A stretch of DNA of 52,960 bases from positions 1 to 52,960 of IMG/VR virus record IMGVR_UViG_3300016656_000176; one strand, written 5' to 3'. This DNA is from a virus. Taxonomy: Duplodnaviria; Caudoviricetes. The translations under genes and the position numbers were made by a program. Under the pieces are notes generated by a model. It searched no databases. It was not told the DNA's origin and worked only from the letters and a program-made list of their open reading frames with translations. Of the stretch, positions 132 through 47,127 are shown piece by piece (the first letter of the stretch is position 1; each line of letters begins with the position of its first letter).

Positions 132-1427
132 TTAATCCTCACCTATGGTTGTTTTCTGAATAGCGCTGCAAGCCACGCCGTTAGTGGCTTCCAGCGTATT
201 ACCGGATTCTCCGAATCTAACGCCTGTCTGCCCGTGGATCAGGCTGAAACCCTTCTGGTCTAGATGGGCGTGCCACTTTTCCAGCGCGTCACGCTTGCGG
301 CCCATCACGTCCGACTGGATGTACACCTTCACGTTGTGACCCATCGCGTGATTGATCAGCAGTTCACCTATCAGGTGGTCGATGCCGAGGTCTGCCCAGC
401 CGGTACGGGCCACCTTGCGCAGGTCGTGACTGGTCCACTCGCCCTTCCCCAGCCGGGTGAACACAGCACTGGCCTGCCCTTCGCTCAAGGCCTTTCCGTT
501 GCGTGCCGGGAACAGGTACTGGCCGTCATAGCCACGGGCGGTTTGTATTTCGCGGTACTGGATCAACAGGCTGCGCACCTGGTCGGTCAATGGCAGGTGA
601 TGCTCCACGCCGGTCTTGGTGTGCTCCGCTGGAATGAACCACTCGCGTTCGGCCAGGCTGATATGCGGCCAGCGCGCTTGCCGGGTCTCCCCGATCCGGG
701 TGCCATGGCACAACATCATCAACGCAAGCATGGCGTCAGCCGGATCGCTCGTCATGGCCCGGCCCAGTTCGCCCAGCAGATCCTGCAACTGCACACCGCG
801 CAGGCGCGACGGCTTGATCCCTACCTTGGCCTTGGAGAAGTCACTGAACTTGATGCCCGCCATTGGATTGGACGTGATCAGACCCAGCTTCAACGCCTGA
901 CGAAATGCCAGAGCCAGCAACTGGAACGCCAGGCGCACGTAATCGATTGAGAGGGATTCCTGCAGCGGCCACATGAACAGGGTATCGAGCGTGGCCTTGT
1001 TGACCTCAACCAGCGGCAAGTCACCCAGGCGCGGCAGCAGGTGGCACTTCATGGCCGAAGCACCGGTGTTCTTGCGCTTGGCCGACAAGCTGCGGTCGCG
1101 GGCCATGCGATCGGCATACCAGGTGAGCAGCTCACCAGTGGTGGCCCACTGGGAAATGGTCGAGCCCGCATCAGCAGATACACGCAGGCGCACGGCTGGC
1201 AGCTCGGCCAGAACCTGCTTGGCGCTCAAGTCCGGAAAGGCTCCAATGCGGTGCCAGCGGCGCTTGCTGAGCAAGTACCAGGAGCCACGGGTGCGATTCT
1301 TGGAGAAGCGAAAGTGCAACGCCGGGTGACCGGCATCCCGCAGGTCGCGCACATGCTCAAGCTTCGCATTGCGCCCAATCTCCGCGTCGGACAGCTTCAC
1401 GGTCAGGGTTTTGATTTTGGTGTTCAA
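132..1427 (-). CDS. Tyrosine recombinase (second integrase-like gene, in the replication operon)
   Basis: 431 aa; HGTRIGET (R), HTKT (K), SHDLRK (HxxR), INH, VYIQ (Y); N-terminal arm-binding-like domain. Confidence 0.9.
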   Translation of the reverse strand: MNTKIKTLTVKLSDAEIGRNAKLEHVRDLRDAGHPALHFRFSKNRTRGSWYLLSKRRWHRIGAFPDLSAKQVLAELPAVRLRVSADAGSTISQWATTGELLTWYADRMARDRSLSAKRKNTGASAMKCHLLPRLGDLPLVEVNKATLDTLFMWPLQESLSIDYVRLAFQLLALAFRQALKLGLITSNPMAGIKFSDFSKAKVGIKPSRLRGVQLQDLLGELGRAMTSDPADAMLALMMLCHGTRIGETRQARWPHISLAEREWFIPAEHTKTGVEHHLPLTDQVRSLLIQYREIQTARGYDGQYLFPARNGKALSEGQASAVFTRLGKGEWTSHDLRKVARTGWADLGIDHLIGELLINHAMGHNVKVYIQSDVMGRKRDALEKWHAHLDQKGFSLIHGQTGVRFGESGNTLEATNGVACSAIQKTTIGED

Positions 1428-1633
1428 CGGTCACCTTCCTGCTGGGGTTGCCGGTCGACAACCTCGTAAGTGGTTGGCCACATCAGGCGACCAAACGTGT
1501 GTGCCGCACTTTCATGCTCAAACAGGGCCACGGCCCGGTCGGGTTTGTGGCTCAAGTCGAGCTTGTACGAGCAGCAGTGAACGGCCCAGCGATAGGCACT
1601 CAGTTCAACCGGGGCCAGATGAGGGTTAGGCAT
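1424..1633 (-). CDS. Phage hypothetical protein
   Basis: MPNPHLAPVEL...; overlaps the P stop and the recombinase start. Confidence 0.65.
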   Translation of the reverse strand: MPNPHLAPVELSAYRWAVHCCSYKLDLSHKPDRAVALFEHESAAHTFGRLMWPTTYEVVDRQPQQEGDR

Positions 1634-2321
1634 GCGCTGCACCTCCCGAACGCATGGCCCGCAGCGCCGCCAGAGCCTTATTGCCCACTTCGGGCGCGCT
1701 GCGCTCAATGGCCCGTGGCGGCAAAGCTAATGGCATTTTCTGCAACGGCAAACCCGCCAGAATGCGGCGCACCGTGATCGTGTAATTGCGCTCAAACAGC
1801 TTGATGCTCAGGTCGTGGGACAGCCGGTTGAGGTTTTCAAATCCGCACTCTTTGGCCGTGTGCCACACCGCATCGTGAGACCACTTGGCCTGGCCAGCCA
1901 TCGACGGATGAGCGTTACGGCAAGCCTCATGGTGAGCCGCTGCCAACCTCGGCAGGCCCAGCATTTCCGCTGTGGGGGTGCACCATTCGATGAACGTACC
2001 AACGTGCGGCACAAAGTCTTTTTTCGCTTGGCGAGCACGCATCAGACCAAAACGAAGTTGCTCTGTACTGCAGATCGCAGCCTCAAGAAACCCTTGCATC
2101 CACTGTTGTTTGGCCGCTTTGTAGGTCGCCATGTCGGGCCACGCTTGCTTCCACGCTGGGAAGATCGAGCGAAGCTCACGGAACAGACCGTTGATGACTT
2201 TGGCCGTGGCCTGGGACAGCTCGGCGGCGGGCTGGATATGTTCGCTTTCACCGGCAGCGATGAACTGGCCGGTTTGAACCTTGGCCCACAGGCCGGTGGC
2301 GATTACTGAAACTTGATTCAT
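1626..2321 (-). CDS. Replication protein P-like (helicase loader)
   Basis: LRSIFPAWKQAW...AKQQW motif; follows the initiator; near-identical copy at 42026-42721. Confidence 0.8.
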   Translation of the reverse strand: MNQVSVIATGLWAKVQTGQFIAAGESEHIQPAAELSQATAKVINGLFRELRSIFPAWKQAWPDMATYKAAKQQWMQGFLEAAICSTEQLRFGLMRARQAKKDFVPHVGTFIEWCTPTAEMLGLPRLAAAHHEACRNAHPSMAGQAKWSHDAVWHTAKECGFENLNRLSHDLSIKLFERNYTITVRRILAGLPLQKMPLALPPRAIERSAPEVGNKALAALRAMRSGGAAHA

Positions 2322-3091
2322 TGGGTGGCCTCCTGATGCAGCCAGTCGGTGTTTTCATCGTCAAAGGGCTCGTCAGAACGGGGCTTGCCCGGGAAGCGGC
2401 TGACGTTGGTTCCGGCGGTCTTGACCTGATCACGCTGCACCCACTTGACCAGCATGCTCACCCACTCGGCCTGGGTGTTGATCACACCCTTCGGCTCGTA
2501 GTGGCAGGTGAACAGGGCAATCACCGCTGGAGTGAACAGAGCGCCAGACAGGCCAACGTGAACGGCATAGGTTTTTAGGGTTTCTGGATCGGGCAACCAG
2601 TCCAGGGTCATGGCGACCATTTCGCGTGGATCGAACGGCTCGTGCGCGTTGGGTGGGTTTTCTCCCTTATATTCCCCTTCCCTTCCGGGGGTGAGGGCTC
2701 GTCTAGGCTCTGGCGGTTCCTCGGCGAGGGCTCGTCGAGCACTCTCCGAATTAGCGTCGATAGTCAGTCGATATGCAGGGTGTTTAATCGTCGGCCGATC
2801 GATCTTTTGATGCTTCCAGCCGTTGACGTGCAGGTACTCTTTACACGACACCTCGTAGAGGTCGATCAGCCCGTTCATTGACAGCTCGGCGAGCAGTTCA
2901 GCGACTTTCGCCGAGGTGATGTCATCGCCTGGGAACACCAGAGCCTTCAGGGTCTTGGCCGACATGGGGTGGTTGCCTGCGTCGTCGCAGAAATTCCACA
3001 CGCCGATAAACAACAGGCGTGCCAAAGGGCTGCATTCCATGACCTGTTCACTGGTCCAGAACTCGGGTTTGATCGTGCGGATGCGGGCCAT
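2318..3091 (-). CDS. Phage replication initiator with C-terminal DnaT-like domain
   Basis: MARIRTIKPEFWTSEQV...LLFIGVWNFCDDAG N-terminus; O-gene position; internal repeats. Confidence 0.8.
   Translation of the reverse strand: MARIRTIKPEFWTSEQVMECSPLARLLFIGVWNFCDDAGNHPMSAKTLKALVFPGDDITSAKVAELLAELSMNGLIDLYEVSCKEYLHVNGWKHQKIDRPTIKHPAYRLTIDANSESARRALAEEPPEPRRALTPGREGEYKGENPPNAHEPFDPREMVAMTLDWLPDPETLKTYAVHVGLSGALFTPAVIALFTCHYEPKGVINTQAEWVSMLVKWVQRDQVKTAGTNVSRFPGKPRSDEPFDDENTDWLHQEATQ
2693..2769. repeat. Putative origin iterons (seven degenerate tandem 11-mers)
   Basis: GAGGGCTCGTC exact at 2693 and 2726 within an 11-bp periodic tract inside rep. Confidence 0.55.
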
Positions 3092-3180
3092 TACACGGCC
3101 TCCTGTGCGGCGGACGTGTGGAAGCGGAGAAGCCGAGCTGTAGGGTTAGAGGTATTGCTTGATGATCGACCTGTGCTCAT
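3091..3180 (-). CDS. 29-aa leader peptide coupled to rep
   Basis: GGGAG SD; MSTGRSSSNTS...AV*; TAATG overlap with rep; counterpart at 43512-43574. Confidence 0.5.
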   Translation of the reverse strand: MSTGRSSSNTSNPTARLLRFHTSAAQEAV

Positions 3181-3183
3181 ACT
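3155..3183 (+). promoter_or_regulatory. Antisense sigma70 promoter (pOOP-like)
   Basis: TTGCTT-N17-CATACT; prophage B has TTGCTT-N17-CATAAT. Confidence 0.65.
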
Positions 3184-3189
3184 GACTCC

Positions 3190-3234
3190 CGTAAATGTTG
3201 TTTTGAGGCCGACCTGATCCGTCGGCCTTTTTTT
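3190..3234 (+). ncRNA. ~45-nt OOP-like antisense RNA
   Basis: Between the promoter and terminator AGGCCGAC-7-GTCGGCCT-T6. Confidence 0.55.
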
Positions 3235-3250
3235 GCCTGCGATTTGACAA

Positions 3251-3266
3251 CTGGATGAATTAACAG
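3251..3266. promoter_or_regulatory. LexA (SOS) box
   Basis: CTGGATGAATTAACAG = CTG-N10-CAG; conserved at 43645-43660. Confidence 0.65.
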
Positions 3267-3344
3267 CTAATCCCAGGCGCTACCGCTTAATTGCAAGCAA
3301 GGTGATAATTCACGTCCCAGATAGCTCCGTGCTGCGATGCTGGG

Positions 3345-3554
3345 TTAGGCGGCGGATATCTTGGCTTCGTGCGACGGATCATCAGAGCGACACGCGATGA
3401 GCTGTCCTCTCGACTCTTTCTCCAGTACGCACTGCATTGGATAGGAGAAACCACCTGCTGCGCGGCATTGCGAAACACGCCCCCCACTCACGCCAAGGGC
3501 TTCTCCGATGGATCGGCCTGAGCCGAAAAACTTCAGGGCTTGGTCGTAGGTCAT
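3345..3554 (-). CDS. cro: Cro-like HTH repressor (all-alpha type)
   Basis: 69 aa, divergent from cI; GSGRSIGEALGVSGGRVSQ HTH. Confidence 0.8.
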   Translation of the reverse strand: MTYDQALKFFGSGRSIGEALGVSGGRVSQCRAAGGFSYPMQCVLEKESRGQLIACRSDDPSHEAKISAA

Positions 3555-3579
3555 TAATCAACTCTCCTGTCTTACCGGG

Positions 3580-3643
3580 AGTTTAGAAAAATTAACAACT
3601 AAAGGCAAGTTATCTAAACAGCGCAATGTTTAGAATTCTAAAT
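3580..3643. promoter_or_regulatory. OR region: PR and three operators
   Basis: 17-bp sites at 3581, 3603, 3627 resembling TGTTAAGTTTTCTAAAT; PR on minus strand TTGCCT-N17-TAAACT; TAGAAT 7 nt before ATG 3644 suggests leaderless cI. Confidence 0.7.
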
Positions 3644-4321
3644 ATGGAATTTAAAGATCGGCTGAAAACGCGGATGGATACCTTGGGTATTCGTGCCACG
3701 GACATAAGTGAACGCCTGAAGGTTTCCAGGGCTACTGTTTCGTTCTGGATGAACGGGACGAATGGCGCGAAAGGGAAAAACTTACTGGCATTGGCAGAGA
3801 TGCTTGAGTGCCTGCCTAACTGGCTTGAGACCGGCAAGGGACCAATGTCCAGAGGCGCTCCAGACCAGCCAAACGGATCTCCTAGCGGTAAGGATTACGC
3901 CCTCATCCCACAATTCAGCGCAAAGGCTGACTGTGGCGCTGGATACCTGAATGAGCACGTCGAGTTAACCGAAGGCCTTGCATTCAAGCGGGACTGGCTC
4001 AAGCGCATTAATGCCAAGCCGGAAAACTTGTATGTCATCTATGCTAGCGGCGACAGCATGGAGCCTTACATCTTCGAGGGCGATGTAGTGCTGTTCGATA
4101 CGTCGCAAACAGAGCCAAAAGACAAGCAGGTGTACGTCATACGGCGTCCTGACGGCGGCAACAGCATCAAGCGTTTGACGCAGCAGTTGTCTGGGGTTTG
4201 GGTAATTAGAAGCGACAATCCTGACAAAAATGCCAACCCAGACGAACTTGCTTCCGAAGAATCAATTCACGACATGCCAATTTTGGGTCGTGTCATATGG
4301 CGCGGCGGCGGCGTAGGGTAA
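3644..4321 (+). CDS. cI: CI repressor (HTH + S24 autopeptidase)
   Basis: N-terminal HTH; GDSMEP catalytic Ser, IKRL Lys; start at 3644 or 3626. Confidence 0.9.
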
Positions 4322-4372
4322 ACACCTGTCGCGGCTGCAGTATTGAAAACTTATTCCCGGAAACGGTACTCC

Positions 4373-4684
4373 ATGCGAAAACTCATAGTTGCCGGCCTGA
4401 TTGCCATCATCGCAATTGCCGTCTACACGCAAATCACTATATTTGTGGTTCCGCCGATCGGCGCAGTACCGGAAGGCCGCACCGTGATAATGCTTCGGCT
4501 GAATAAGACCAACTTCATCGACAGCGCCGACGCAATTTGTGAGCGCATCCAAGGCAACGTGAATCTTCTTTGCCGGGGAATGACTATGGCCGGGGTCGTT
4601 AACAACACAAAAATTATTGCTCGCCTTCCCTACTCCGAATGGCTTTACCTGATTTCAACGGGCGGCAAGCGGTACGACCACTAG
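4373..4684 (+). CDS. Small membrane-anchored protein in the immunity region
   Basis: MRKLIVAGLIAIIAIAVY hydrophobic N-terminus. Confidence 0.7.
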   Translation: MRKLIVAGLIAIIAIAVYTQITIFVVPPIGAVPEGRTVIMLRLNKTNFIDSADAICERIQGNVNLLCRGMTMAGVVNNTKIIARLPYSEWLYLISTGGKRYDH

Positions 4685-4861
4685 ATCAGCTCAGGGCTTT
4701 CAAGATTCTCTCAAGCCTCTCGATGCTAGCCCGCCTGCCCTCCACAGGCAGGATTTTTTGTGACTACTACTTTATCGGCCAACCGATACGCCTACCCCGC
4801 CCAATGGTGGCCGTGCGCCATTAATGATAGAGTCCAGGCTAAATTTTAGGAGGTCTCCATC

Positions 4862-5479
4862 TTGAAAATTGCCATGCATTCCATCGCTCTTGCGGCTGCC
4901 TTTGCACTATCCACTAATGCCAATGCCGAGGTTGCTGAGAAAGAAGTGATTCAATGCGCCGCGGTAGAGAATAGCGTTGAGAGGCTTTCTTGCTATGACG
5001 CTCTAGCAGATGGGAAGGGCTTATCGAAGCAAACTGTATCCACGCAATCTGTTGGCAAAGGGAAGTGGAGCACCTCTACCAAAACAGACCCTCTAACCGA
5101 TCAATCGATCTACATTGCAATGCTCGACGCCGAAAGCGGGTCAGGCAGGTACGGTGGGCGCGTAGGCATGGTAGTGCGCTGCTCGAAGAACACTACTGAG
5201 TGGTATGTAAACTGGAATTCATTTCTAGGGATTGATGAGACAACTATTACGCACCGCGTAGGTAAATCAAAAGCTCAGCGGCACTCATGGGTCGTTTCGA
5301 CGGACCATAAATCCTCCTTCTATCCTAGTTCTCCGGTCCCAATTCTGAAAGAGATGATGAAGAGCGATTCCCTTGTGGCCAATGTCACGCCCTACGGCGA
5401 AAACCCTTTAACTGCTTCGTTCAACATCTCGGGCGCCGAAGCCGCACTAGCTGACATTCGTAAAGGGTGCGGCTGGTAG
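4862..5479 (+). CDS. Exported protein resembling the T6SS-associated TagO/VasI family
   Basis: Signal peptide; CAAVENSVERLSCYD and VVRC motifs; AGGAGG SD before TTG. Confidence 0.6.
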   Translation: MKIAMHSIALAAAFALSTNANAEVAEKEVIQCAAVENSVERLSCYDALADGKGLSKQTVSTQSVGKGKWSTSTKTDPLTDQSIYIAMLDAESGSGRYGGRVGMVVRCSKNTTEWYVNWNSFLGIDETTITHRVGKSKAQRHSWVVSTDHKSSFYPSSPVPILKEMMKSDSLVANVTPYGENPLTASFNISGAEAALADIRKGCGW

Positions 5480-5498
5480 ACATTCTCTCTCATCACAC

Positions 5499-5523
5499 AG
5501 CCCGCCATTGAGCGGGCTTTTTT
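5499..5523 (+). terminator. Rho-independent terminator
   Basis: AGCCCGC-CATTGA-GCGGGCT followed by a T run. Confidence 0.8.
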
Positions 5524-5552
5524 ATGGATCCGAAATCTCTCAACAATTTATT

Positions 5553-5605
5553 TGTTAAGTTTTCTTAATTACCCTCTTGACGAAATCTGTTAAGTTTTCT
5601 AAATT
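5553..5605 (+). promoter_or_regulatory. PL-equivalent promoter with two operators
   Basis: TTGACG-N17-TAAATT; TGTTAAGTTTTCT(T/A)AAT at 5553 and 5588. Confidence 0.8.
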
Positions 5606-5636
5606 ACATCCATCACAGCAACACACTGCAGCGACC

Positions 5637-5648
5637 CGCTCTTTAACA
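5637..5648 (+). promoter_or_regulatory. boxA antitermination element
   Basis: CGCTCTTTAACA; identical at 46628. Confidence 0.8.
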
Positions 5649-5764
5649 ACCTGCATACGCACCCTGACGCCATACGGCATTTGAGTTCAGGGAACAGCAC
5701 TCAATACAGCCTGCTTCCGTGACCGGTAACTCGGCGCACAAGGTTTGCTGGCAACACCGGACAC

Positions 5765-5810
5765 TTTCACTGCTGCACCTGGCTTGCCGGGTGTATCGGG
5801 AAAACAACCG
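5765..5810 (+). repeat. 46-bp hairpin element (copy 1 of 3)
   Basis: TTTCRCTG-N24 hairpin-CGGGAAARCAACCG; also at 46756 and 47128. Confidence 0.7.
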
Positions 5811-5820
5811 AGTAGACATC

Positions 5821-6204
5821 ATGGAATCGACAATCGTAGACGGTGCATGGAAGGGCCACCTCGGCCGAGGCCTTGCGCCACGGGAACTGCAGTTCGTGCT
5901 CTCAGTTGCCCAGGGACTTACCGCCAAAGAGATCGCCAGAGCCTTCGACATTGCGCCGGGCACCGTGGTCAAGCGATTGGCCTGCGCCATGTACAAGCTT
6001 GGCGTGCACCGCCAGGGCGCGATGGTCGCCGAAGCGATGCGCCGACAGATCATCACCCCTCTCTGCTTGCTGCTGGTCGCAGTGATGACGATGCAAGGTC
6101 TTGATGACAGCGGGATGGCTAGACGTGATCGCCGCCCAACTGAGCGACGAGGCGGCGAATTGAGAATGACACGCCGCGCGGATTCTTTTGATCTGGTCGG
6201 GTAA
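5821..6204 (+). CDS. LuxR/GerE-type HTH protein with hydrophobic segment and Arg-rich tail
   Basis: LAPRELQFVLSVAQGLTAKEIARAFDIAPGTV...KLGV; homolog at 47184. Confidence 0.8.
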   Translation: MESTIVDGAWKGHLGRGLAPRELQFVLSVAQGLTAKEIARAFDIAPGTVVKRLACAMYKLGVHRQGAMVAEAMRRQIITPLCLLLVAVMTMQGLDDSGMARRDRRPTERRGGELRMTRRADSFDLVG

Positions 6205-6274
6205 ACCGAATCAACCAGCGCCACGACAGCCTGTCGCTAACTGCCCGAGCACCTGGTACTCCCCAGCACCAGGA

Positions 6275-6477
6275 CGCATCGGAGTGTGATCTGAATGCGC
6301 AGGCTGATGCGCAGGATCTTGGGTAATCCTGCTGTGATGGCAGGGACATTGGGTAGAGGTCAGTGGCTGGCATCGCGAAAGCGGTGAAATCAATTCCAGA
6401 GCAACCGCAGGCAGACATCTACAGCCGACCGACCAAAATGCCGGGAATCAGTGCCGGTCAGATCACACCCCGATACG
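6275..6477 (+). ncRNA. Candidate tRNA-shaped structured RNA
   Basis: 18/20 closing stem, two small arms with complementary loops, GAAA tetraloop hairpin; no convincing ORF. Confidence 0.6.
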
Positions 6478-6550
6478 GACGCCAACCCAGCAGACGCTGG
6501 ACACCTGCATCACCCCTTCCCTGCTGACGATCAAAACGGAGGATTCAGCC

Positions 6551-6562
6551 ATGCACAAGTAA
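6551..6562 (+). other. Minigene ATG CAC AAG TAA
   Basis: GGAGG SD; equivalent minigene at 48157. Confidence 0.5.
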
Positions 6563-6626
6563 CCAGTGATGGGCACGCCCATACAGCCTTGCTCTTACAT
6601 ACGGCGGCGTTTTAAGAGTGCAACAC

Positions 6627-6650
6627 AGCCCGGTTTCGACTGGGCTTTTT
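6627..6650 (+). terminator. tL1-like terminator
   Basis: AGCCCGGT-TTCG-ACTGGGCT-T run; identical at 48233. Confidence 0.8.
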
Positions 6651-6734
6651 CATGCCTGCAGTTATTCGTCAGCCCTCCCTTGTCGCAAGGCTTGAGCGCT
6701 GACGAATACCCGTAACCCAAGTCGAGGATCGACC

Positions 6735-7082
6735 ATGCACCCATCAATCGCCCAGCGCATCACCGTTCTCGACGGGTTGCGCGCACGTGCTCACCAGGCC
6801 ACGGCCGAGTTCTACCAAAAGCCCGGCGTACAACCGCCACCGCTGGCCCCGCTGATCATCGTGCGGCCGAGCGGTAACAACACCTTTTCGCTGATCAATC
6901 GCGCTACTGGCGTGGTCGTAGCCGAGCGCTTCGGCCACAACAATGCCACTGCTCATGCTCGTGAGCTGGAGGCAAAAGAAGCGCAGTTCAACGTTAAGCA
7001 GTTCGGAAAATTCCTGAGCAGCTGGGCTTTGCGCTTTGGTATCACACTGACCGTGTTCGCCTTCTTCGGCAGTCACATGTGA
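6735..7082 (+). CDS. Phage protein with C-terminal hydrophobic helix
   Basis: GAGGA SD; homolog at 48341. Confidence 0.8.
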   Translation: MHPSIAQRITVLDGLRARAHQATAEFYQKPGVQPPPLAPLIIVRPSGNNTFSLINRATGVVVAERFGHNNATAHARELEAKEAQFNVKQFGKFLSSWALRFGITLTVFAFFGSHM

Positions 7083-7163
7083 AGCGCGTCAACGCATCCG
7101 CACAGCGACGCCTTCGCCAAACCCAACATCAATTGCCACCCAGCGGACTTGAAGAGGCAAGCC

Positions 7164-7412
7164 ATGGCCAAATCTGCAACCGAACGGAAGCGCGATCAAC
7201 GCGACCGCGACAAGCTGAGTGCGAAAGAAAAAGAAGCACTCCTGCTGTCACGAAAGATTGTCACAGCTCTTTATCACAACGATGACGCCGCGCTGAAACG
7301 AACCATGGCGCGCACCGGAATCGATGAGGAACAGGATCTGATATCGCGCTTCATTCGCGGCGCCGACCGCATGACTGATCAGCAATTGGCGGACTTTATC
7401 CGCCTTCTGTGA
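7164..7412 (+). CDS. Small basic phage protein
   Basis: MAKSATERKRDQRDRDK; GAGG SD. Confidence 0.7.
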   Translation: MAKSATERKRDQRDRDKLSAKEKEALLLSRKIVTALYHNDDAALKRTMARTGIDEEQDLISRFIRGADRMTDQQLADFIRLL

Positions 7413-7493
7413 CTGTCACGCCTGCATGTCACTAACGAGAAATAACCTCGCTGCATCCGGTCACGGAGGGCGGCGCCATCCCGAGGTAATACC

Positions 7494-8498
7494 ATGCCCA
7501 TCCGCCACAGCATCATCCATCAGATCGACAAGAAGCCAGACGGCACTCCAGCCGTGCTGCACGTCAGCAAAACCGAGCTGGCCGAATCTCAGGTCACCGA
7601 AAACCTGCTGCACGACCTGAACGTCGCCTACAACGCCAAGACCGGCAAGGCGTGGGGTTTCTTTCACGCCCAGTCCGGCGCCTTCCCTTTCAGCGGCTGG
7701 TTGCAGACCTATATCGACGGCGGCGAATTTATCGAGTTCAGCCACACCGCAGTCGAGCACCTACAAAAACTAATGGAAGAATCAAACCTGAGTGTTGGTG
7801 GGCATGTGTTGCTGACCCACTACCAGCAAGGCCTGACCGACTACCTGATAGTTGCCCTGCTCCAGCACAGTGAAGCGGTCACTGTGAATGCTGACCTCAG
7901 CGTCACCCCTTCCAAGCATCTGGACTTTGGCAGCGTCACCCTGGCAGCACGGATCAATATCTCGGAATGGCGCAGCCACCCGAAGTCGCGACAGTACATT
8001 TCATACCTGAAAGGTTCGAAGGGTCGCAAAACAAACGACTACTTCCGTGACTTCATCGGTTGTCAGGAAGGTGTTGATGGCCCGGGCGAAACACGCACGT
8101 TGCTCAAGGCCTTCAGCGACTTTGTCACCGCCGAGGATCTGCACGAAGACAGTGCCCGCGAGAAAACCAACACCTTGGTTAGTTACTCAATGGCCCAGGC
8201 CAAGATTGGCGAGCCGATGAGTCTCAACGAACTGTCGGGACTGATTGATGAAGACCGGCCAGCAGCCTTCTATGACTTCATCCGCAACAAGGACTACGGC
8301 CTGTCGTCAGAGATTCCTGCCGACAGGCGCACCCTGAACCAGTTCCGGCGTTTTACCGGGCGCGCTGAAGGGCTATCAATCAGCTTTGAGGCTCACATGC
8401 TCGGTTCAAAAATCGAGTATGACGAAGAGGCAGGTAGCCTGTTATTGCGCGGCCTACCCGCCCGGCTCACTGATCAGCTTAAGCGCGCAATTGCCTGA
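7494..8498 (+). CDS. yejK: Nucleoid-associated protein, NdpA/YejK family
   Basis: [17 protein letters not shown]...YFRDFIGC...LNQFRRFTG. Confidence 0.85.
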
Positions 8499-8541
8499 CA
8501 TGAGCTTTCCGCTACTTTCCCATGAGAGAGCGGCAAACCGA

Positions 8542-8802
8542 TTAGCGATTTTTCCAAGCGTCAGAACACGCAATCCGAAGACGATCAATGACCTGAGAGT
8601 CAGTCGGGTCCGGGACTTCGATTAAGAGTTGGTGGTGCTCATCCACAACTCCTGGGGTATTTGATGAGCTGAACCCTGGGAGCATCCTTGCACGCCAGAC
8701 CTCGATACCTTGCGTGTGGTCACCTGGCAATACAGCAAGAACATCGTTGTATCTCCATACATCAACACTGCCTAGCTCACTTTCAATGATTACTGTTTTC
8801 AC
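8542..8802 (-). CDS. Antisense moron, hypothetical protein
   Basis: AAGGAG SD before GTG 8802; opposite to the operon. Confidence 0.6.
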   Translation of the reverse strand: MKTVIIESELGSVDVWRYNDVLAVLPGDHTQGIEVWRARMLPGFSSSNTPGVVDEHHQLLIEVPDPTDSQVIDRLRIACSDAWKNR

Positions 8803-8901
8803 TTTTCGCTCCTTGATCCGGTTCCTACCGGTCACCCGTGATACTCCACTTCAACGAATCATGCCAGCTCAGACCGTATCGACGACTGGCCGGAGAATCC
8901 C

Positions 8902-9290
8902 ATGAGTACATTTGCCGTATTTGGAATGACCCGCGATGTTGCGCTGGCCGAGGCCAAAAAGCGCACCAAAGGCACCCGCAAGAACGTGAAGGCACCAGGC
9001 GGTGTCGAGCCTATCCCCCTTGCGGAATGGCTAGAGCTTGTCGAGAAGAAGACCGAGCAGATTATGGGGGGGGTACGGCTCGCCAATTGTCGCCTCTATT
9101 CGATGCTCCGCAGTACGCCGAACAGTTCATAGAGTTGGCCCGAAAAACCATTCAATGCCGGGATCTGCGCATCAGGGCAAAGTGCGTAATGACTGACGCC
9201 GAAGGCAAGCCAATCATCAACCCGAAGACGAAAGCACAGCGGGTTGGGTTTTGTGAGTGGCAGCCAGAAAATCGAATACAGACTGCCTGA
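8902..9290 (+). pseudogene. Phage protein frameshifted at a G8 tract
   Basis: MSTFAVFGMT frame and ...RQLSPLFDAPQY frame join if G8 (9066-9073) becomes G9; C-terminal homolog at ~50020-50239. Confidence 0.7.
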
Positions 9291-9302
9291 TCAAATAGTG
9301 CA

Positions 9303-9521
9303 TTACACCGAGTGAGCGCACAGATCTACCGCTTCAAGTTGATAACCCCTCAGAGCCTTCATCAGTTGGAAGTCATAGAAACTGGCTTCTGCGGCTGACT
9401 TCGTCTCGAATAGCTCCGCTTGGTCTGAAGTCTTACAGCGATACCGGCAACCATCACGATCTATCGCCTCACCATAAAAGGAGTCCCCTGCGGGACTTGT
9501 AAGCATCACGACCCAAGCCAT
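9303..9521 (-). CDS. Antisense moron, hypothetical protein
   Basis: GGAGG SD; 72 aa. Confidence 0.6.
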   Translation of the reverse strand: MAWVVMLTSPAGDSFYGEAIDRDGCRYRCKTSDQAELFETKSAAEASFYDFQLMKALRGYQLEAVDLCAHSV

Positions 9522-9605
9522 ACCGAACCTCCATCCGGATCGGATGCCCGGTGCTTAACCAGTACTCCACTTTTGTTAGTAACGCCACCTTGGCGAGGAT
9601 CCCCT

Positions 9606-11552
9606 ATGTCCGCACAACAGAAAAAATACCCCTTCGATTTCAAAACCCAGTACGGCCTTGGCTTCAACCAGCAGGACGATGAGATCGTCGTGGACTTCTT
9701 CTGCGGCGGTGGCGGCGCCGGTACCGGGCTGGAAATGGGCCTTGGTCGCGCTGTCACCGTCGCCAAAAACCACAGCCCCGCCGCGATCAGCATGCACACA
9801 GTCAACCACCCACATGCGAAGCACTACACCACTGACGTGTTCGAGGGTGACCCTGACACTGAATGTGGTGGCCGGGCGGTTGGCTGGTTCCATATGTCGC
9901 CGGACTGCACCCATCACAGCCAGGCAGCCGGTGGGCAGCCCCGCAAGCGTGAGATTCGTAACCTGTCGTGGATAGGCCTCAAGTGGGCAGGCATGAAGCA
10001 ACCCCGGGTGATCAGCCTCGAAAACGTGAAGCAGATCCTGCAATGGGGCCGGTTGATAGCCAAGCGCGACAAAGCCACGGGCCGCGTGGTGAAACTCGGC
10101 GGTGACGTGGCAGCACCTGGTGAAGTTGTGCCCGTGGGCCAGCAGTTCCTGATCCCCGACCCGAAGCAGCGGGGCCGCACCTGGCGCCGCTTCGTTGCCT
10201 TGCTGGAAGGCATGGGCTATGTCGTTGAGTGGAAGGTGATCAAAGCCTGCGACTTTGGCGCCCCCACCAGCCGGGAACGCCTGTTCATGATTGCCCGTTG
10301 CGATGGCCAGCCCATCGTGTGGCCCGAACCAACACACGCCAAGAGCCCCGCCAAAGGTCAGCAGAAGTGGCGCACCGCCGCCGAGTGCATTGACTGGACC
10401 ATCCCCAGCCAAAGCATCTTTGGTCGTAAAAAGGATCTGGCCCCGGCCACCCTGCGCCGCGTTGCCAAGGGCATGCGCAAGTTCGTACTGGATGCCGCCA
10501 GTCCTTTTATTGTGCCGATCGCGAATTGGTCCGGGGAAAGCGTGCAGTCTGCGGACGAGCCACTGCGCACCGTGACCTCCTATCCCAAGGGCGGCGCCTT
10601 CTCGATAGTCAGCCCAACACTCGTTCAAACCGGTTACGGGGAGAGAGCTGGCCAAGCACCGCGTGTACCTGGTCTGGATCAGCCCTTGGGTACGGTTGTA
10701 GCAGGCGGGGTTAAGCATGCGATCGCAGCGGCGCATCTGGTGAAGTTCAGGTTTGCCGACGAAGGCAAAGCACTGGGAGAGCCATTACCCACCATCACCA
10801 GCGGCGGTAACTACAAGCGGCCTGCCGGTGCCGCGCATGCAATGGGAATCTCGACTGTGTTCATGGCCCAGATGAATGGCGGCTTCAACACAACAGCAGC
10901 CAAAAGCATCGAAGACCCCATGACCACCGTGACCAACACCGGAAGCCAGCAACAACTGGTCACCGCCAACCTGGTGCACTTACGCGGTAACTGCGATGCA
11001 CGGGACTTGAACGACCCGCTACACACCATCAGCGCAGGCGGCACCCATCACGGGCTGATGACGGCATTCCTTGAGCGTCAGTTCGGCGCCAGTGTCGGCC
11101 AGGGCCTGAACGAACCGGCACCCACCATCACAGCGGGCGGCGGCGGCAAAAGTTCGCTGGTCGAGCTGAAGCTGTCGCCAGAGGTTGAAGCAGGAGCGCT
11201 GCGGGTCGCGGCCTTCCTGATCAGCTACTACGGCACCGAGAATGTGAGTGACGCCAACGAGCCGGCACCGACCATTACCACCCGCGACCGCCTGGCACTG
11301 GTCACCGTGACCATCAAAGGCACGCCGTATGTAATCGTCGATATCTGCCTGCGGATGCTGCAACCCGCTGAGCTCTACAAGGCCCAGGGCTTCCCCGGCG
11401 ACTACATCATCAGCCACGGCGCCGACGGTAAACCTTTCACAAAAACCCAGCAAGTGCACATGTGCGGGAACAGCGTCAGCCCGCCTCCGATGGCAGCACT
11501 GGCTCGCGCAAATGACCCGTGGCGTGTCGCAGAGCTCCGGGCAGCAGCTTAA
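9606..11552 (+). CDS. DNA (cytosine-5) methyltransferase, orphan
   Basis: DFFCGGGG motif I, SPDC, ENV, RERLF, GNSV motifs. Confidence 0.9.
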   Translation: MSAQQKKYPFDFKTQYGLGFNQQDDEIVVDFFCGGGGAGTGLEMGLGRAVTVAKNHSPAAISMHTVNHPHAKHYTTDVFEGDPDTECGGRAVGWFHMSPDCTHHSQAAGGQPRKREIRNLSWIGLKWAGMKQPRVISLENVKQILQWGRLIAKRDKATGRVVKLGGDVAAPGEVVPVGQQFLIPDPKQRGRTWRRFVALLEGMGYVVEWKVIKACDFGAPTSRERLFMIARCDGQPIVWPEPTHAKSPAKGQQKWRTAAECIDWTIPSQSIFGRKKDLAPATLRRVAKGMRKFVLDAASPFIVPIANWSGESVQSADEPLRTVTSYPKGGAFSIVSPTLVQTGYGERAGQAPRVPGLDQPLGTVVAGGVKHAIAAAHLVKFRFADEGKALGEPLPTITSGGNYKRPAGAAHAMGISTVFMAQMNGGFNTTAAKSIEDPMTTVTNTGSQQQLVTANLVHLRGNCDARDLNDPLHTISAGGTHHGLMTAFLERQFGASVGQGLNEPAPTITAGGGGKSSLVELKLSPEVEAGALRVAAFLISYYGTENVSDANEPAPTITTRDRLALVTVTIKGTPYVIVDICLRMLQPAELYKAQGFPGDYIISHGADGKPFTKTQQVHMCGNSVSPPPMAALARANDPWRVAELRAAA

Positions 11553-46330: not shown

Positions 46331-46551
46331 GGTGCTGCGTCTGAGGCAGGCCCGGAAGACTAACGCACCTTCTATCACAAACGATTTTGCGCCTCTTACA
46401 CCTAATCAACACTCCAAGCGTAACCGGCAAAGCCAAGGGGATTTGGCCCCGTTTTTGAATGCCAGAGCGGTAACGAAATTTGATTCAGGCAAGCACGCTT
46501 ACGAGCAGCTTTAAACGCGCCCACGAGTAGTTTTTTACCCTCCGAAATATA

Positions 46552-46639
46552 TATCTCCGGCGGCATTGACTTAAAATATCTCCGGCGGCATTATCTATAT
46601 GCGTAGCCGCAGTACGCTGCAGTGACCCGCTCTTTAACA
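46552..46639 (+). promoter_or_regulatory. PL with two operators and boxA
   Basis: TATCTCCGGCGGCATT x2 (46552, 46577); TTGACT-N17-CATTAT; CGCTCTTTAACA at 46628. Confidence 0.82.
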
Positions 46640-46755
46640 ACTTGCAGACGCGCCCTGACGCCATACGGCACTTGAGCTCAGGGAACAGCAAGCAACACAG
46701 CCTGCTTCCGTGACCGATAACTCGACACGCAAGGTTTGCTGGCAACAACGGACAC

Positions 46756-46801
46756 TTTCACTGCTACACCTGGCTTGCCGGGTGCACCGGGAAAGCAACC
46801 G
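46756..46801 (+). repeat. 46-bp hairpin element (copy 2)
   Basis: TTTCACTG-N24-CGGGAAAGCAACCG. Confidence 0.7.
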
Positions 46802-46824
46802 GCCAACAACATAGAGATCAAATC

Positions 46825-47127
46825 ATGAACAAAGAACAGGCTTACGACAGCTTGATAAGTCCTCTCATACTGCAAATCATCAGCATCTGCAAGGATCAAG
46901 GCATTGCAATGATGGCCAGCTTTGACATTGCACACGACGGCGAAGGCCCTAATGGCGAGGACTGTTCCGGACTGATATGCACCAGCCTGCTACCAGATGG
47001 CGACGGCGTGCCTAACCACGATTTTAAGCAGGCTAATGCGCTCATTCGTCGAGGCCACCGACCTTCCCCAATGATGATCACCACCGATCATAGCGATGGG
47101 TCAAAGACTATGACGGCGATCATCTGA
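46825..47127 (+). CDS. Hypothetical protein inserted between hairpin elements
   Basis: 100 aa; absent from the same position in prophage A. Confidence 0.75.
   Translation: MNKEQAYDSLISPLILQIISICKDQGIAMMASFDIAHDGEGPNGEDCSGLICTSLLPDGDGVPNHDFKQANALIRRGHRPSPMMITTDHSDGSKTMTAII

What the first reader, a model, noticed from the sequence alone, without database searches (positions are those of the whole stretch)
6215..6500. tRNA-shaped ~200-nt RNA with complementary arm loops and a large structured insert
Seen: 6275-6294 pairs with 6458-6477 (18/20). Inside, a D-arm-like hairpin TGCGCA-GGCTGA-TGCGCA (6296-6313) and a T-arm-like GCCGG-GAATCAGTG-CCGGT (6440-6458) abut the stem, and their loops can pair (GCTGAT 6303-6308 with ATCAGT 6447-6452, one G-U). 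The 125-nt interior folds too: GTAGAGGTC/GACATCTAC and CATCGC-GAAA-GCGGTG. An upstream hairpin (6252-6273) displays CTCCCC. B has ORFs in this slot, so it behaves as exchangeable cargo. I recall similar arm sequences in enterobacterial prophage early operons (unverified). Inference: an RNase III-released scaffold RNA with a variable domain (tRNA mimic/decoy or guide-like).
Basis: partly seen in the sequence, partly recalled or inferred. Interest (0 to 1): 0.8.

Follow-up and report, generated by a model that had tools for sequence, protein, structure and literature searches.

The report
Swappable tRNA-shaped RNA cassette in prophages
An untranslated stretch in the early operon of a Pseudomonas prophage folds into a conserved 20-base-pair stalk that holds a tRNA-shaped RNA, and related prophages keep the stalk but swap what it holds, which points to a so far undescribed way for phages to carry and exchange small RNAs.

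Summary
It is one member of a large Pseudomonas prophage family. The leader motif hit at least 120 IMG/VR contigs and 88 of 401 Pseudomonas species genomes. Rfam 15 and ARAGORN give no match.

The architecture runs: stop codon of the upstream gene, two small covarying hairpins, a stalk of about 20 bp with strong covariation, an exchangeable cargo (69 sequence clusters, 4-179 nt), then often a trailer hairpin and a 1-3 codon mini-ORF.

The window's cargo belongs to "class A" (78 distinct members). These have a 2-nt linker, a D-like hairpin, a hypervariable centre and a T-like hairpin stacked on the stalk. Their loops are complementary, but only 1 of 78 members shows a compensatory change.

The element lies on the + strand, downstream of a consensus BoxA in a PL-like operon.

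Best reading (inferred, about 0.45): a leader-trailer processing stalk like that of pre-rRNA, probably cut by RNase III, which insulates or releases a passenger RNA. No transcript ends could be seen. No tRNA homology or guide target was found.

The parts
5499..5524 (+). Intrinsic-terminator-like hairpin plus T run. It ends the repressor-side (immunity) operon upstream of the early promoter.
   Evidence: stem 5499-5518, 7 pairs, T run; sequence
5550..5607 (+). PL-like early promoter TTGACG-17-TAAATT (5577-5605), overlapped by two 23-nt direct repeats (5550-5572 and 5585-5607) that are operator-like.
5637..5649 (+). Consensus BoxA (CGCTCTTTAACAA) at the start of the early transcript.
   Evidence: BoxA also lies upstream on the same strand in 75 of 160 family loci, with 0 downstream and 0 on the opposite strand.
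5822..6204 (+). First gene of the early operon: a LuxR/GerE-type HTH protein (phrog_3282). The ORF is listed as 5719-6204, with an ATG at 5822.
6215..6248 (+). Leader: CCAGCGCCA, hairpin 1 (CGACA-GCC-TGTCG, 6224-6236) and the invariant linker CTAACTGCCCGA (6237-6248).
   Evidence: The middle pair of hairpin 1 is A-U in 16, U-A in 16 and G-C in 3 of 36 sequences.
6252..6273 (+). Hairpin 2 (CCTGGT-ACTCCCCAGC-ACCAGG), with a C-rich loop.
   Evidence: A hairpin of at least 4 bp forms in 93 of 96 distinct family segments, with 54 distinct stem sequences.
6275..6294 (+). 5' arm of the closing stalk.
6296..6313 (+). D-like hairpin TGCGCA-GGCTGA-TGCGCA, after the 2-nt linker AA.
   Evidence: 91.9% of cells paired in 78 class A members
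6314..6439 (+). Hypervariable centre of the cargo. It is unique to this phage, and its own helices are untested.
6440..6458 (+). T-like hairpin GCCGG-GAATCAGTG-CCGGT, directly abutting the 3' arm. Its loop is complementary to the D-like loop.
6458..6477 (+). 3' arm of the closing stalk.
6487..6511 (+). Trailer: hairpin 3 (CCAGC-AGAC-GCTGG, 6487-6500) and the conserved CCTGCATC (6504-6511).
   Evidence: hairpin 3 has different stems in relatives: GCGG/CCGC, CCGC/GCGG, CCAGC/GCTGG, CCGG/CCGG
6538..6562 (+). Shine-Dalgarno GGAGGA (6538-6543) and the mini-ORF ATG CAC AAG TAA (6551-6562).
   Evidence: 47 of 99 first SD-ATGs after the element open ORFs of 6 codons or fewer
6627..6651 (+). Intrinsic-terminator-like hairpin plus T run after the cassette.
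6663..6708 (.). 15-nt inverted repeat ahead of the next gene (6735-7082). Its role is unknown.
   Evidence: pair I2

Best explanation
SHOWN. The region 6215-6511 is one member of a family of modular structured RNA cassettes found in Pseudomonas lambdoid prophages. It lies on the + strand, inside the early operon that starts at a repressor-controlled promoter (5577-5605) and a consensus BoxA (5637-5649). It begins 10 nt after the stop codon of the first gene. The parts are two small hairpins joined by an invariant linker, a stalk of about 20 bp made by the sequences flanking a cargo, the cargo, a trailer hairpin and a mini-ORF with a strong ribosome-binding site. Leader and stalk are kept while cargos are swapped between phages. 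The window's cargo is of 'class A', a cloverleaf-like, tRNA-shaped fold.

INFERRED. The stalk works like the leader-trailer helix that flanks rRNAs in BoxA-antiterminated rRNA operons. RNA polymerase modified at BoxA reads through several hundred untranslated, highly structured bases without Rho termination. The two arms then pair into a two-turn helix, which RNase III (perhaps with tRNA-processing enzymes acting on the T-like arm) cuts. This separates the upstream and downstream cistrons and leaves a compact, stable passenger RNA. The mini-ORF reloads ribosomes behind it.

UNKNOWN. What the passenger does. A decoy or mimic of tRNA for a host factor is my leading guess.
For: Family and structure:
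- The leader motif occurs in at least 120 viral contigs and in 88 of 401 Pseudomonas species genomes, against 1 for the backwards control.
- Stalk covariation is strong: 95.6% paired against 78.0% in shuffles, score 0.428 against 0.117, 0 of 500 shuffles reach it, and slid controls give 20-38%.
- There are 62 different arm pairs.
- Stalk length peaks at 19-21 bp in 84 of 161 elements, while the cargo ranges from 4 to 179 nt in 69 clusters.

Strand:
- GNRA/UNCG tetraloops number 13 on the + strand and 2 on the - strand among 95 distinct hairpins.
- BoxA lies upstream on the same strand in 75 of 160 loci, with 0 downstream and 0 on the opposite strand.
- All neighbouring genes are on the + strand.
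- The T-like hairpin is forward in 20 leader-bearing stretches and inverted in 0.

tRNA-like traits:
- Class A has a 2-nt linker and a T-like hairpin abutting the 3' arm.
- Other cargo families end in canonical GGGTTCGAATCCC or GGGTTCGATTCCC next to the 3' arm.
- The cargo of L086 holds a nested tRNA at 37.2 bits, above the gathering score of 29 (ARAGORN).

Other points:
- Minimal members are plain long hairpins (L018, L063, L064, L081), so the stalk itself is the constant part.
- Mini-ORFs follow the element: 46 of 99 first SD-ATGs open ORFs of 3 codons or fewer, against about 13 expected (the expectation is my own arithmetic).
- The analogy rests on passages of PMC10250234. They describe a leader-trailer helix flanking 16S rRNA that is cleaved by RNase III, in a BoxA antitermination unit, with tRNAs co-transcribed.
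Against: - There is no transcript evidence. The only RNA libraries holding the region are kept as contigs, which show neither ends nor strand.
- RNase III cleavage cannot be predicted from sequence.
- In silico the - strand folds better (z -2.97 against -1.81).
- Two fixed stalk positions are A.C or C.A on the + strand, in 49 and 18 of 78 class A members. Both would be G.U on the - strand.
- Over 62 arm pairs there are 57 G.U and 29 A.C on the + strand, so wobble counts do not settle the strand.
- An exact BoxA was found within 3 kb in only 75 of 160 loci. Unlike in rRNA operons, it lies 250-2700 nt upstream with a coding gene in between.
- The loop-loop pairing has 1 compensatory case in 78 members.
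- Nothing shows that the cargo acts in trans. There is no antisense target, and apart from the arms there is no likeness to host genomes.
Confidence: 0.45

Rival explanations
1. A purely cis-acting operon element. Leader, stalk and trailer act on the mRNA or on RNA polymerase, for example as a barrier to 3' exonucleases that stabilises the upstream cistron, as retroregulation like lambda sib, as a block to Rho loading, or as a second antitermination signal. The cargo is then a tolerated passenger without a function of its own.
For: - Minimal members have almost no cargo (4-30 nt).
- The most conserved parts are the leader and the base of the stalk.
- The stop codon of the upstream ORF ends 3-4 nt before the leader in 95 of 135 loci, across 39 upstream protein families.
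- The trailer CCTGCATC can pair with the end of the 3' arm, which offers an alternative structure.
- Mini-ORFs follow the element.
Against: - Class A cargos keep the sequences of their two terminal hairpins and loops across 78 distinct centres.
- Several unrelated cargo families converge on a T-arm-like hairpin stacked on the stalk.
- A nested tRNA occurs in L086.

All of this points to selection on the cargo itself.
Confidence: 0.3
2. A DNA-level feature. The inverted repeats would be the ends of a small mobile insertion (MITE-like), or a recombination hot spot at a module boundary, and the apparent 'structure' would be a by-product.
For: - Cargo swaps occur exactly at the conserved base GCATCGG / CCGATGC. 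Relatives with the window's flanks but a 34-nt insert are seen in L036, L063, L064 and L081 and, table 5c.
- A.C and G.U mismatches occur on both strands.
- Upstream neighbours are mosaic.
Against: - There is one copy per phage record.
- The element sits behind a leader of this kind in most cases: of 108 class A hits with enough upstream sequence, 19 have the strict leader motif and 32 more have the linker motif in the 110 nt before the stalk. Of the rest I saw 25 listed, most with variant leaders and five with none.
- Orientation is fixed: 20 forward, 0 inverted.
- There are at least 62 different arm pairs that keep complementarity.
- Small hairpins outside the repeats also covary.
- GNRA/UNCG loops are biased to one strand, 13 against 2.
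Confidence: 0.1
3. An antisense (- strand) small RNA transcribed against the early operon, like lambda OOP or P22 sar.
For: - The - strand folds better (z -2.97).
- Both mismatches in the window's stalk, and the recurrent A.C positions, become G.U on the - strand.
Against: - No promoter-like site was found on either strand in 5600-7200.
- The tetraloop bias favours the + strand.
- BoxA and all flanking genes are on the + strand.
Confidence: 0.05
4. A true but divergent tRNA, tmRNA or Y-RNA-like (YrlA) gene.
For: - The topology is cloverleaf-like.
- Relatives carry canonical T-loops.
- L086 holds a nested tRNA hit and a weak YrlA hit of 25.7 bits.
Against: - ARAGORN finds no tRNA or tmRNA in the window, nor in 10 loci with tRNA-like cargos. 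It of 126 element segments, L086, with an abnormal anticodon loop.
- Rfam gives nothing at gathering score and nothing up to E = 10.
- The T-like loop of class A has 9 nt and is not a T-loop.
- There is no anticodon arm, no CCA and no tag ORF.
Confidence: 0.02

Closest known systems
Leader-trailer helix (RNase III processing stalk) of pre-16S and pre-23S rRNA in BoxA-antiterminated rrn operons
   Same: - A long helix is formed by the sequences that flank a structured, untranslated RNA.
- It lies in a transcription unit that begins with BoxA.
- The helix is kept by covariation while its sequence drifts.
- Small leader hairpins precede the 5' strand.
- tRNAs ride in the same transcript.

Source for the rRNA side: passages of PMC10250234 read. 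Source for this family.
   Different: - The stalk here is 14-28 bp (mode 19-21) against 25-40 bp.
- The cargo is 4-179 nt and differs from phage to phage.
- BoxA lies 250-2700 nt upstream with a protein gene in between, not 18-19 nt away.
- The element sits inside an mRNA operon of a phage.
- Cleavage by RNase III has not been tested.
Intercistronic RNase III sites of phage early mRNAs (T7 R sites, lambda N-leader and sib). Named from my own knowledge; no paper was read.
   Same: Hairpins of about two helical turns, with internal mismatches, lying between cistrons of an early phage operon. Position in the PL-like operon is also shared.
   Different: Those sites are plain hairpins. Here the hairpin is opened to hold exchangeable structured cargos, and it is preceded by a conserved two-hairpin leader.
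tRNA and tRNA mimics (tmRNA tRNA-like domain; YrlA, Rfam RF02553)
   Same: - A closing stem with a 2-nt linker, a first hairpin, a central arm, and a last hairpin stacked on the closing stem.
- Loop-loop contact between the first and last hairpins.
- Canonical T-loops in some cargo families.
   Different: - No Rfam or ARAGORN match for the window.
- The loops pair by 5-6 Watson-Crick pairs, not by a T-loop/D-loop elbow.
- The closing stem is 20 bp and continuous with the flanking mRNA.
- There is no anticodon loop and no CCA.
- YrlA is circularly permuted relative to tRNA (recalled).
DicF and other prophage small RNAs cut out of operon transcripts (recalled; only search listings were seen)
   Same: A small RNA embedded between genes of a prophage early or immunity-region operon and released by processing.
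   Different: No sequence likeness. There is no match in the E. coli genomes. No Hfq-type terminator is present. Here there is a conserved scaffold with many cargos.
Lambda bar minigenes and start-stop mini-ORFs (recalled; search listing only)
   Same: ORFs of 1-3 codons with a strong Shine-Dalgarno sequence inside the PL-side operon.
   Different: Here they sit at a fixed place behind a structured RNA cassette. No effect on peptidyl-tRNA is known.

Membership tests
tRNA (Rfam RF00005; ARAGORN) | Detected by tRNA covariance or heuristic models (cloverleaf with conserved D and T loops). | tested here: not met
   ARAGORN finds 0 genes in the window. Rfam finds 0 at gathering score and no tRNA up to E = 10 in 5900-6900.
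tRNA (Rfam RF00005; ARAGORN) | Anticodon arm with a 7-nt loop, and a 7-nt T-loop (TTCRANY). | tested here: not met
   The T-like loop is the 9-nt GAATCAGTG. The centre is 126 nt with no anticodon arm.
tmRNA | tRNA-like domain plus a tag reading frame, as detected by ARAGORN or Rfam. | tested here: not met
   tRNA-like cargos of relatives also give no tmRNA hit at E up to 5.
YrlA / bacterial Y RNA (RF02553) | Match to the family model. | tested here: not met
   No hit in the window. The best hit in relatives is 25.7 bits against a gathering score of 69, on the nested tRNA of L086.
YrlA / bacterial Y RNA (RF02553) | Neighbouring rsr (Ro60) gene. | tested here: not met
   None of the flanking ORFs scanned (11 different ones in all) is Ro-like.
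Lambda-type nut site | BoxA consensus followed by a boxB hairpin within the element. | tested here: not met
   Matches to BoxA with up to 1 mismatch lie only at 5638, 7266 and 46629, none inside 6205-6520. A true BoxA lies 577 nt upstream of the leader motif.
RNase III leader-trailer processing stalk | A helix of about two turns or more, formed by sequences flanking a structured RNA and kept by covariation. | tested here: met
RNase III leader-trailer processing stalk | Lies in a BoxA antitermination transcription unit. | tested here: met
   Window. Family: 75 of 160 loci by exact pattern.
RNase III leader-trailer processing stalk | Staggered cleavage by RNase III in vivo. | not testable with these tools
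   Only contigs of RNA libraries were available.
MITE-like mobile insertion | Many copies at unrelated sites with terminal inverted repeats. | tested here: not met
   There is one copy in the record. Of 108 class A hits, 19 have the strict leader motif and 32 the linker motif within 110 nt upstream; most others listed have variant leaders. Orientation is fixed.
Retron msr-msd RNA | Adjacent reverse transcriptase gene. | tested here: not met
   No RT family appears among the ORFs scanned from 132 to 11552. The rest of the window was not scanned.

The most novel reading that the evidence does not exclude
Pseudomonas temperate phages keep a plug-in slot for small RNAs. The slot is a BoxA-protected, untranslated stretch of the early operon in which a standard leader and a stalk of about 20 bp present, and RNase III releases, a fast-changing repertoire of tRNA-shaped RNAs (at least 69 cargo clusters). 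These would act as decoys in phage-host or phage-phage conflict, for example against defences or toxins that recognise the acceptor/T-arm face of tRNA. In effect this is an RNA counterpart of protein 'moron' or anti-defence loci, built on the design of an rRNA operon.
Probability: 0.15. Interest if true: 0.85.

Novelty: new variant of a known kind. Interest (0 to 1): 0.68.

Why it matters
If the model holds, it would be a new class of phage-encoded structured RNA. It has unusually clear comparative support and a modular, cassette-like evolution.

It would extend the logic of rRNA operons (BoxA antitermination plus a leader-trailer processing helix) to phage messenger operons.

It would also give a defined scaffold into which nature has already inserted dozens of different small RNAs. 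That is useful for asking what tRNA-shaped RNAs do during infection, and as a natural design for expressing structured RNAs from within operons.

The family is common: 88 of 401 sampled Pseudomonas species genomes carry it (87 of 400 without the unpublished G102). Yet I found no Rfam family and no paper that describes it.

Tried and rejected
**Known RNA families.** Rfam at gathering score on the window gave nothing. Rfam up to E = 10 on 5900-6900 gave one spurious snoRNA hit at E = 3. On 10 relatives the only hit was an unrelated Proteo-phage-1 RNA elsewhere in L050. On 11 relatives at E up to 5, the only hits inside an element were the nested tRNA and a weak YrlA hit, both in L086; the other listed hits were weak and I did not place them.

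**tRNA finders.** ARAGORN found none in the window or in 10 loci. It called 1 of 126 element segments.

**Guide idea.** The longest antisense match of the centre anywhere in the window is 11 nt. Of 30 shuffles, 27 gave 11 nt or more.

**Host origin of tRNA-like cargos.** BLAST of two cargos against three Pseudomonas genomes matched the arms in resident prophage copies plus a few weak short matches (E at least 0.1, 17-30 nt) that I did not follow up.

**Expression.** Four runs were laid and all are contigs. They show the flanks joined to other cargos (34 letters between 6282 and 6470) and one identical 191-nt contig. They give no starts, ends or strand. The low cover over 6305-6438 reflects different cargos in relatives and says nothing about expression.

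**Operator search.** No 11-mers are shared between the cro/cI intergenic region and the region downstream. A TTAACANCTAA scan did not link the element to the repressor.

**Analyses I do not rely on.**
- The clustering of downstream ORFs is unreliable, because the trailer itself was called as an ORF. I use only the upstream clustering.
- The stricter stalk scan (seed of 7 perfect pairs) misclassified many visible stalks, the window's among them. I do not use its counts.

**Enterobacterial likeness.** No match in E. coli complete genomes.

**BoxC.** The commonest 5' arm contains GUGUG, as does the rRNA boxC UCUGUGUGGG. Many arms lack it, so I do not claim a boxC.

**Literature.** Searches found no description of this element. 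Searches were for analogies only.
Full report
**1. Observation**

- Arms 6275-6294 and 6458-6477 are 18 of 20 complementary.
- The D-like hairpin is at 6296-6313 and the T-like hairpin at 6440-6458.
- The loops are complementary: GCTGAT 6303-6308 with ATCAGT 6447-6452, six pairs including one G.U.
- Two inner helices (6353-6361 with 6414-6422, 8 of 9 pairs; 6371-6386 with a GAAA loop) and the upstream hairpin at 6252-6273 are also present.

On this sequence alone the fold is only modestly unusual. The z-score is -1.81 on the + strand and -2.97 on the - strand.

**2. Setting in the window**

The window is an IMG/VR provirus record of a Pseudomonas lambdoid phage.
- On the - strand lie replication genes: an O-like gene at 2318-3091 and a P-like gene at 1626-2321.
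- On the + strand lie a CI-type repressor (3626-4321), two accessory genes, a terminator (5499-5518 plus a T run), and a promoter TTGACG-17-TAAATT (5577-5605) overlapped by two 23-nt direct repeats.
- These are followed by a consensus BoxA CGCTCTTTAACAA (5637-5649) and a LuxR/GerE-type gene (5822-6204).

The finding occupies the untranslated gap after that first gene. Behind it come a Shine-Dalgarno sequence with a three-codon ORF (6538-6562), a terminator-like hairpin (6627-6646), a 15-nt inverted repeat, and the next genes. These include a nucleoid-associated protein (7494-8498) and a cytosine methylase (9573-11552). In lambda terms this is the PL side, with the element behind the gene in the position of N.

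**3. A family, not a singleton**

BLAST found the first 80-110 nt of the region in 28 phage records, 27 of them Pseudomonas, and in 4 P. aeruginosa plasmid records. Every match was partial and unannotated. In phi2, phi1, MD8 and phiPSA1 the match begins at the stop codon of a gene and ends before the next one.

Aligning seven of them showed a conserved leader, a conserved 5' arm, a variable interior and a conserved 3' arm. The arms carry compensating differences between the window and phi2.
- A 20-specified-base leader pattern hit at least 120 IMG/VR contigs and at least 120 stretches of species-representative genomes.
- Among the 80 stretches with titles, those that carry the rest of the leader are all Pseudomonas. 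The non-Pseudomonas hits lack it and are chance matches.
- A second leader pattern occurs in 88 of 401 sampled genomes of the genus, against 1 hit for the backwards control. One matching genome, G102, is unpublished; without it the count is 87 of 400.
- The E. coli complete genomes give no match.

**4. Structure is under selection**

On 36 diverse members (alignment A2), RNAalifold finds hairpin 1 and the stalk. The pair count gives:
- 95.6% standard pairs, against 78.0% in column shuffles and 20-38% when partners are slid;
- 150 cells changed on both sides, against 52 in shuffles;
- a covariation score of 0.428 against 0.117, with 0 of 500 shuffles as high.

Eleven of 16 stalk pairs show double changes. 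The middle pair of hairpin 1 is A-U in 16, U-A in 16 and G-C in 3 sequences. A script found 62 different arm pairs (1015 Watson-Crick, 57 G.U, 29 A.C, 29 other). Hairpin 2 forms in 93 of 96 distinct segments with 54 different stems. Stalk length clusters at 19-21 bp (84 of 161), with a range of 14-28. Cargo runs from 4 to 179 nt in 69 BLAST clusters.

**5. Strand**

The wobble evidence is mixed. The window's two mismatches, and two recurrent positions in the family, are A.C or C.A on the + strand (49 and 18 of 78 class A members). These would be G.U on the - strand.

Against that stand several points.
- Stable tetraloops (GNRA, UNCG) number 13 on the + strand and 2 on the - strand among 95 distinct 4-bp hairpins.
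- An exact BoxA lies upstream on the same strand in 75 of 160 loci (median distance 884 nt), never downstream and never on the other strand.
- All flanking genes are on the + strand.
- The cargo orientation is fixed, 20 forward and 0 inverted.
- No promoter-like site was found on either strand in 5600-7200.

I take the + strand RNA as established with about 0.85-0.9 confidence.

**6. The window's cargo type**

A pattern spanning the arm and the first hairpin found 108 contigs. Of these, 78 are distinct full members, with cargos of 74-180 nt. All have the same parts:
- the linker AA;
- a hairpin with loop GGCTGA;
- a centre that differs freely, and in L086 and L222 includes a nested tRNA-like unit;
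- a hairpin GCCGG-(A)GATCAGCR-CCGGC that abuts the 3' arm.

Most of them are predicted to fold as a four-way, cloverleaf-like junction.

The loop-loop pairing is 6 bp in most members. It shrinks to a 4-bp GCUG:CAGC core in several. It is compensated in one type (GCCGA:UCGGC; L177 and L074) and broken in two (L035, L073). In the formal count the kissing helix is 89.9% paired, but only one cell is changed on both sides. Complementarity is therefore conserved while covariation is thin.

**7. How tRNA-like**

Topologically it is very tRNA-like. By homology it is not. ARAGORN and Rfam find nothing in the window. Other cargo families end with canonical T-arm sequences next to the 3' arm, yet are not called as tRNA or tmRNA. 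Their sequences match host genomes at the arms, plus only a few weak short hits that I did not follow up. Unrelated cargos thus converge on a hairpin stacked on the stalk, which suggests the shape is selected.

**8. Further parts seen in relatives**

- Many members have a trailer with a covarying hairpin 3 and the constant CCTGCATC. The same CCTGCAT follows BoxA at 5650-5656.
- Some have a second, tandem cassette closed by the 7-bp stem GCGGATG/CATCTGC.
- Some have an extra module of about 56 nt in the leader.
- Of 99 first SD-ATGs behind the element, 46 open ORFs of 3 codons or fewer, against about 13 expected by my arithmetic.
- The upstream ORF stops 3-4 nt before the leader in 95 of 135 loci, across 39 protein families.

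**9. Mechanism**

The constant parts are a BoxA-headed operon, a leader, a two-turn helix made by the flanks of a structured RNA, and a device to restart translation behind it. This is the design of rRNA operons. Passages of PMC10250234 describe it: BoxA-dependent antitermination, leader helices, a leader-trailer helix kept by covariation and cleaved by RNase III, and co-transcribed tRNAs.

I therefore read the stalk as a processing or insulating helix and the cargo as a passenger RNA. This is inference, because no ends could be seen.

The main rival is a purely cis-acting mRNA or polymerase element with a neutral cargo. DNA-level, antisense and true-tRNA readings are less likely, for the reasons given under the rivals.

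**10. Novelty**

Rfam 15 has no family for it. Five full-text searches found no description. Subscription journals and supplementary files were not covered. It is a new variant of known kinds, namely processing stalks and tRNA-shaped RNAs, with an unusual cassette-like evolution.

Noticed in passing
window 6538-6562; relatives L009-L350: A strong Shine-Dalgarno sequence followed by a 1-3 codon mini-ORF sits behind the cassette. In the window it is ATG CAC AAG TAA. In 47 of 99 elements with an SD-ATG, the first one opens an ORF of 6 codons or fewer (bare start-stop, MK*, MD*, MHK* and others).
   Followed up: partly
window 46520-46830: There is a second PL-like unit. It has a promoter-like site with two ATATCTCCGGCGGCATT repeats (different from the repeats at 5550-5607), an exact BoxA at 46628-46640, and then about 190 nt roughly 90% identical to 5625-5812. 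No second stalk cassette follows within the window. The record may hold two related early regions.
   Followed up: partly
L023, L034, L042, L056, L068, L092, L114, L118, L125 (leader region): An extra module of about 56 nt is inserted in the leader between TTAACTGCCC and CCCGA. It is a hairpin whose stem differs between loci while its loop GGGTGGT is constant, and CCCACCC lies just downstream. It looks like a pseudoknot.
   Followed up: no
L012, L015, L090, L098 (just after the first cassette): A second class-A-like cassette follows in tandem. It is closed by the 7-bp stem GCGGATG/CATCTGC, which has a G.U at its third pair.
   Followed up: partly
L086:6785-6854 (-); L222 centre: tRNA-like units are nested inside class A centres. 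L086 scores 37.2 bits with Rfam tRNA, and ARAGORN calls it a tRNA with an abnormal anticodon loop. L222 shows D-arm-like and T-arm-like sequences in alignment A3.
   Followed up: partly
window 6283 with 6466, and 6280 with 6470; alignment A3 pairs 9/249 and 6/253: Two stalk positions are recurrently A.C or C.A on the + strand, in 49 and 18 of 78 class A members. In the window pair 9 is A.C, while pair 6 is a normal C-G. The window's second mismatch is C6277 with A6475, at pair 3.
   Followed up: partly
window 6504-6511 and 5650-5656: CCTGCAT(C) occurs both in the trailer and right after BoxA. In the trailer it can pair with GATGCGG at the end of the 3' arm, in competition with the base of the stalk.
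   Followed up: no
L026, L103, L105, L128: In a few loci the leader is followed not by a stalk and cargo but by unrelated sequence, AT-rich in L103 and L026. The slot may hold other inserts.
   Followed up: no
about 74 distinct BoxA contexts in loci L010-L348: The 5' UTRs behind BoxA fall into a handful of conserved types that look structured. Several begin AACAACCAGCGCC, like the start of the cassette leader.
   Followed up: no
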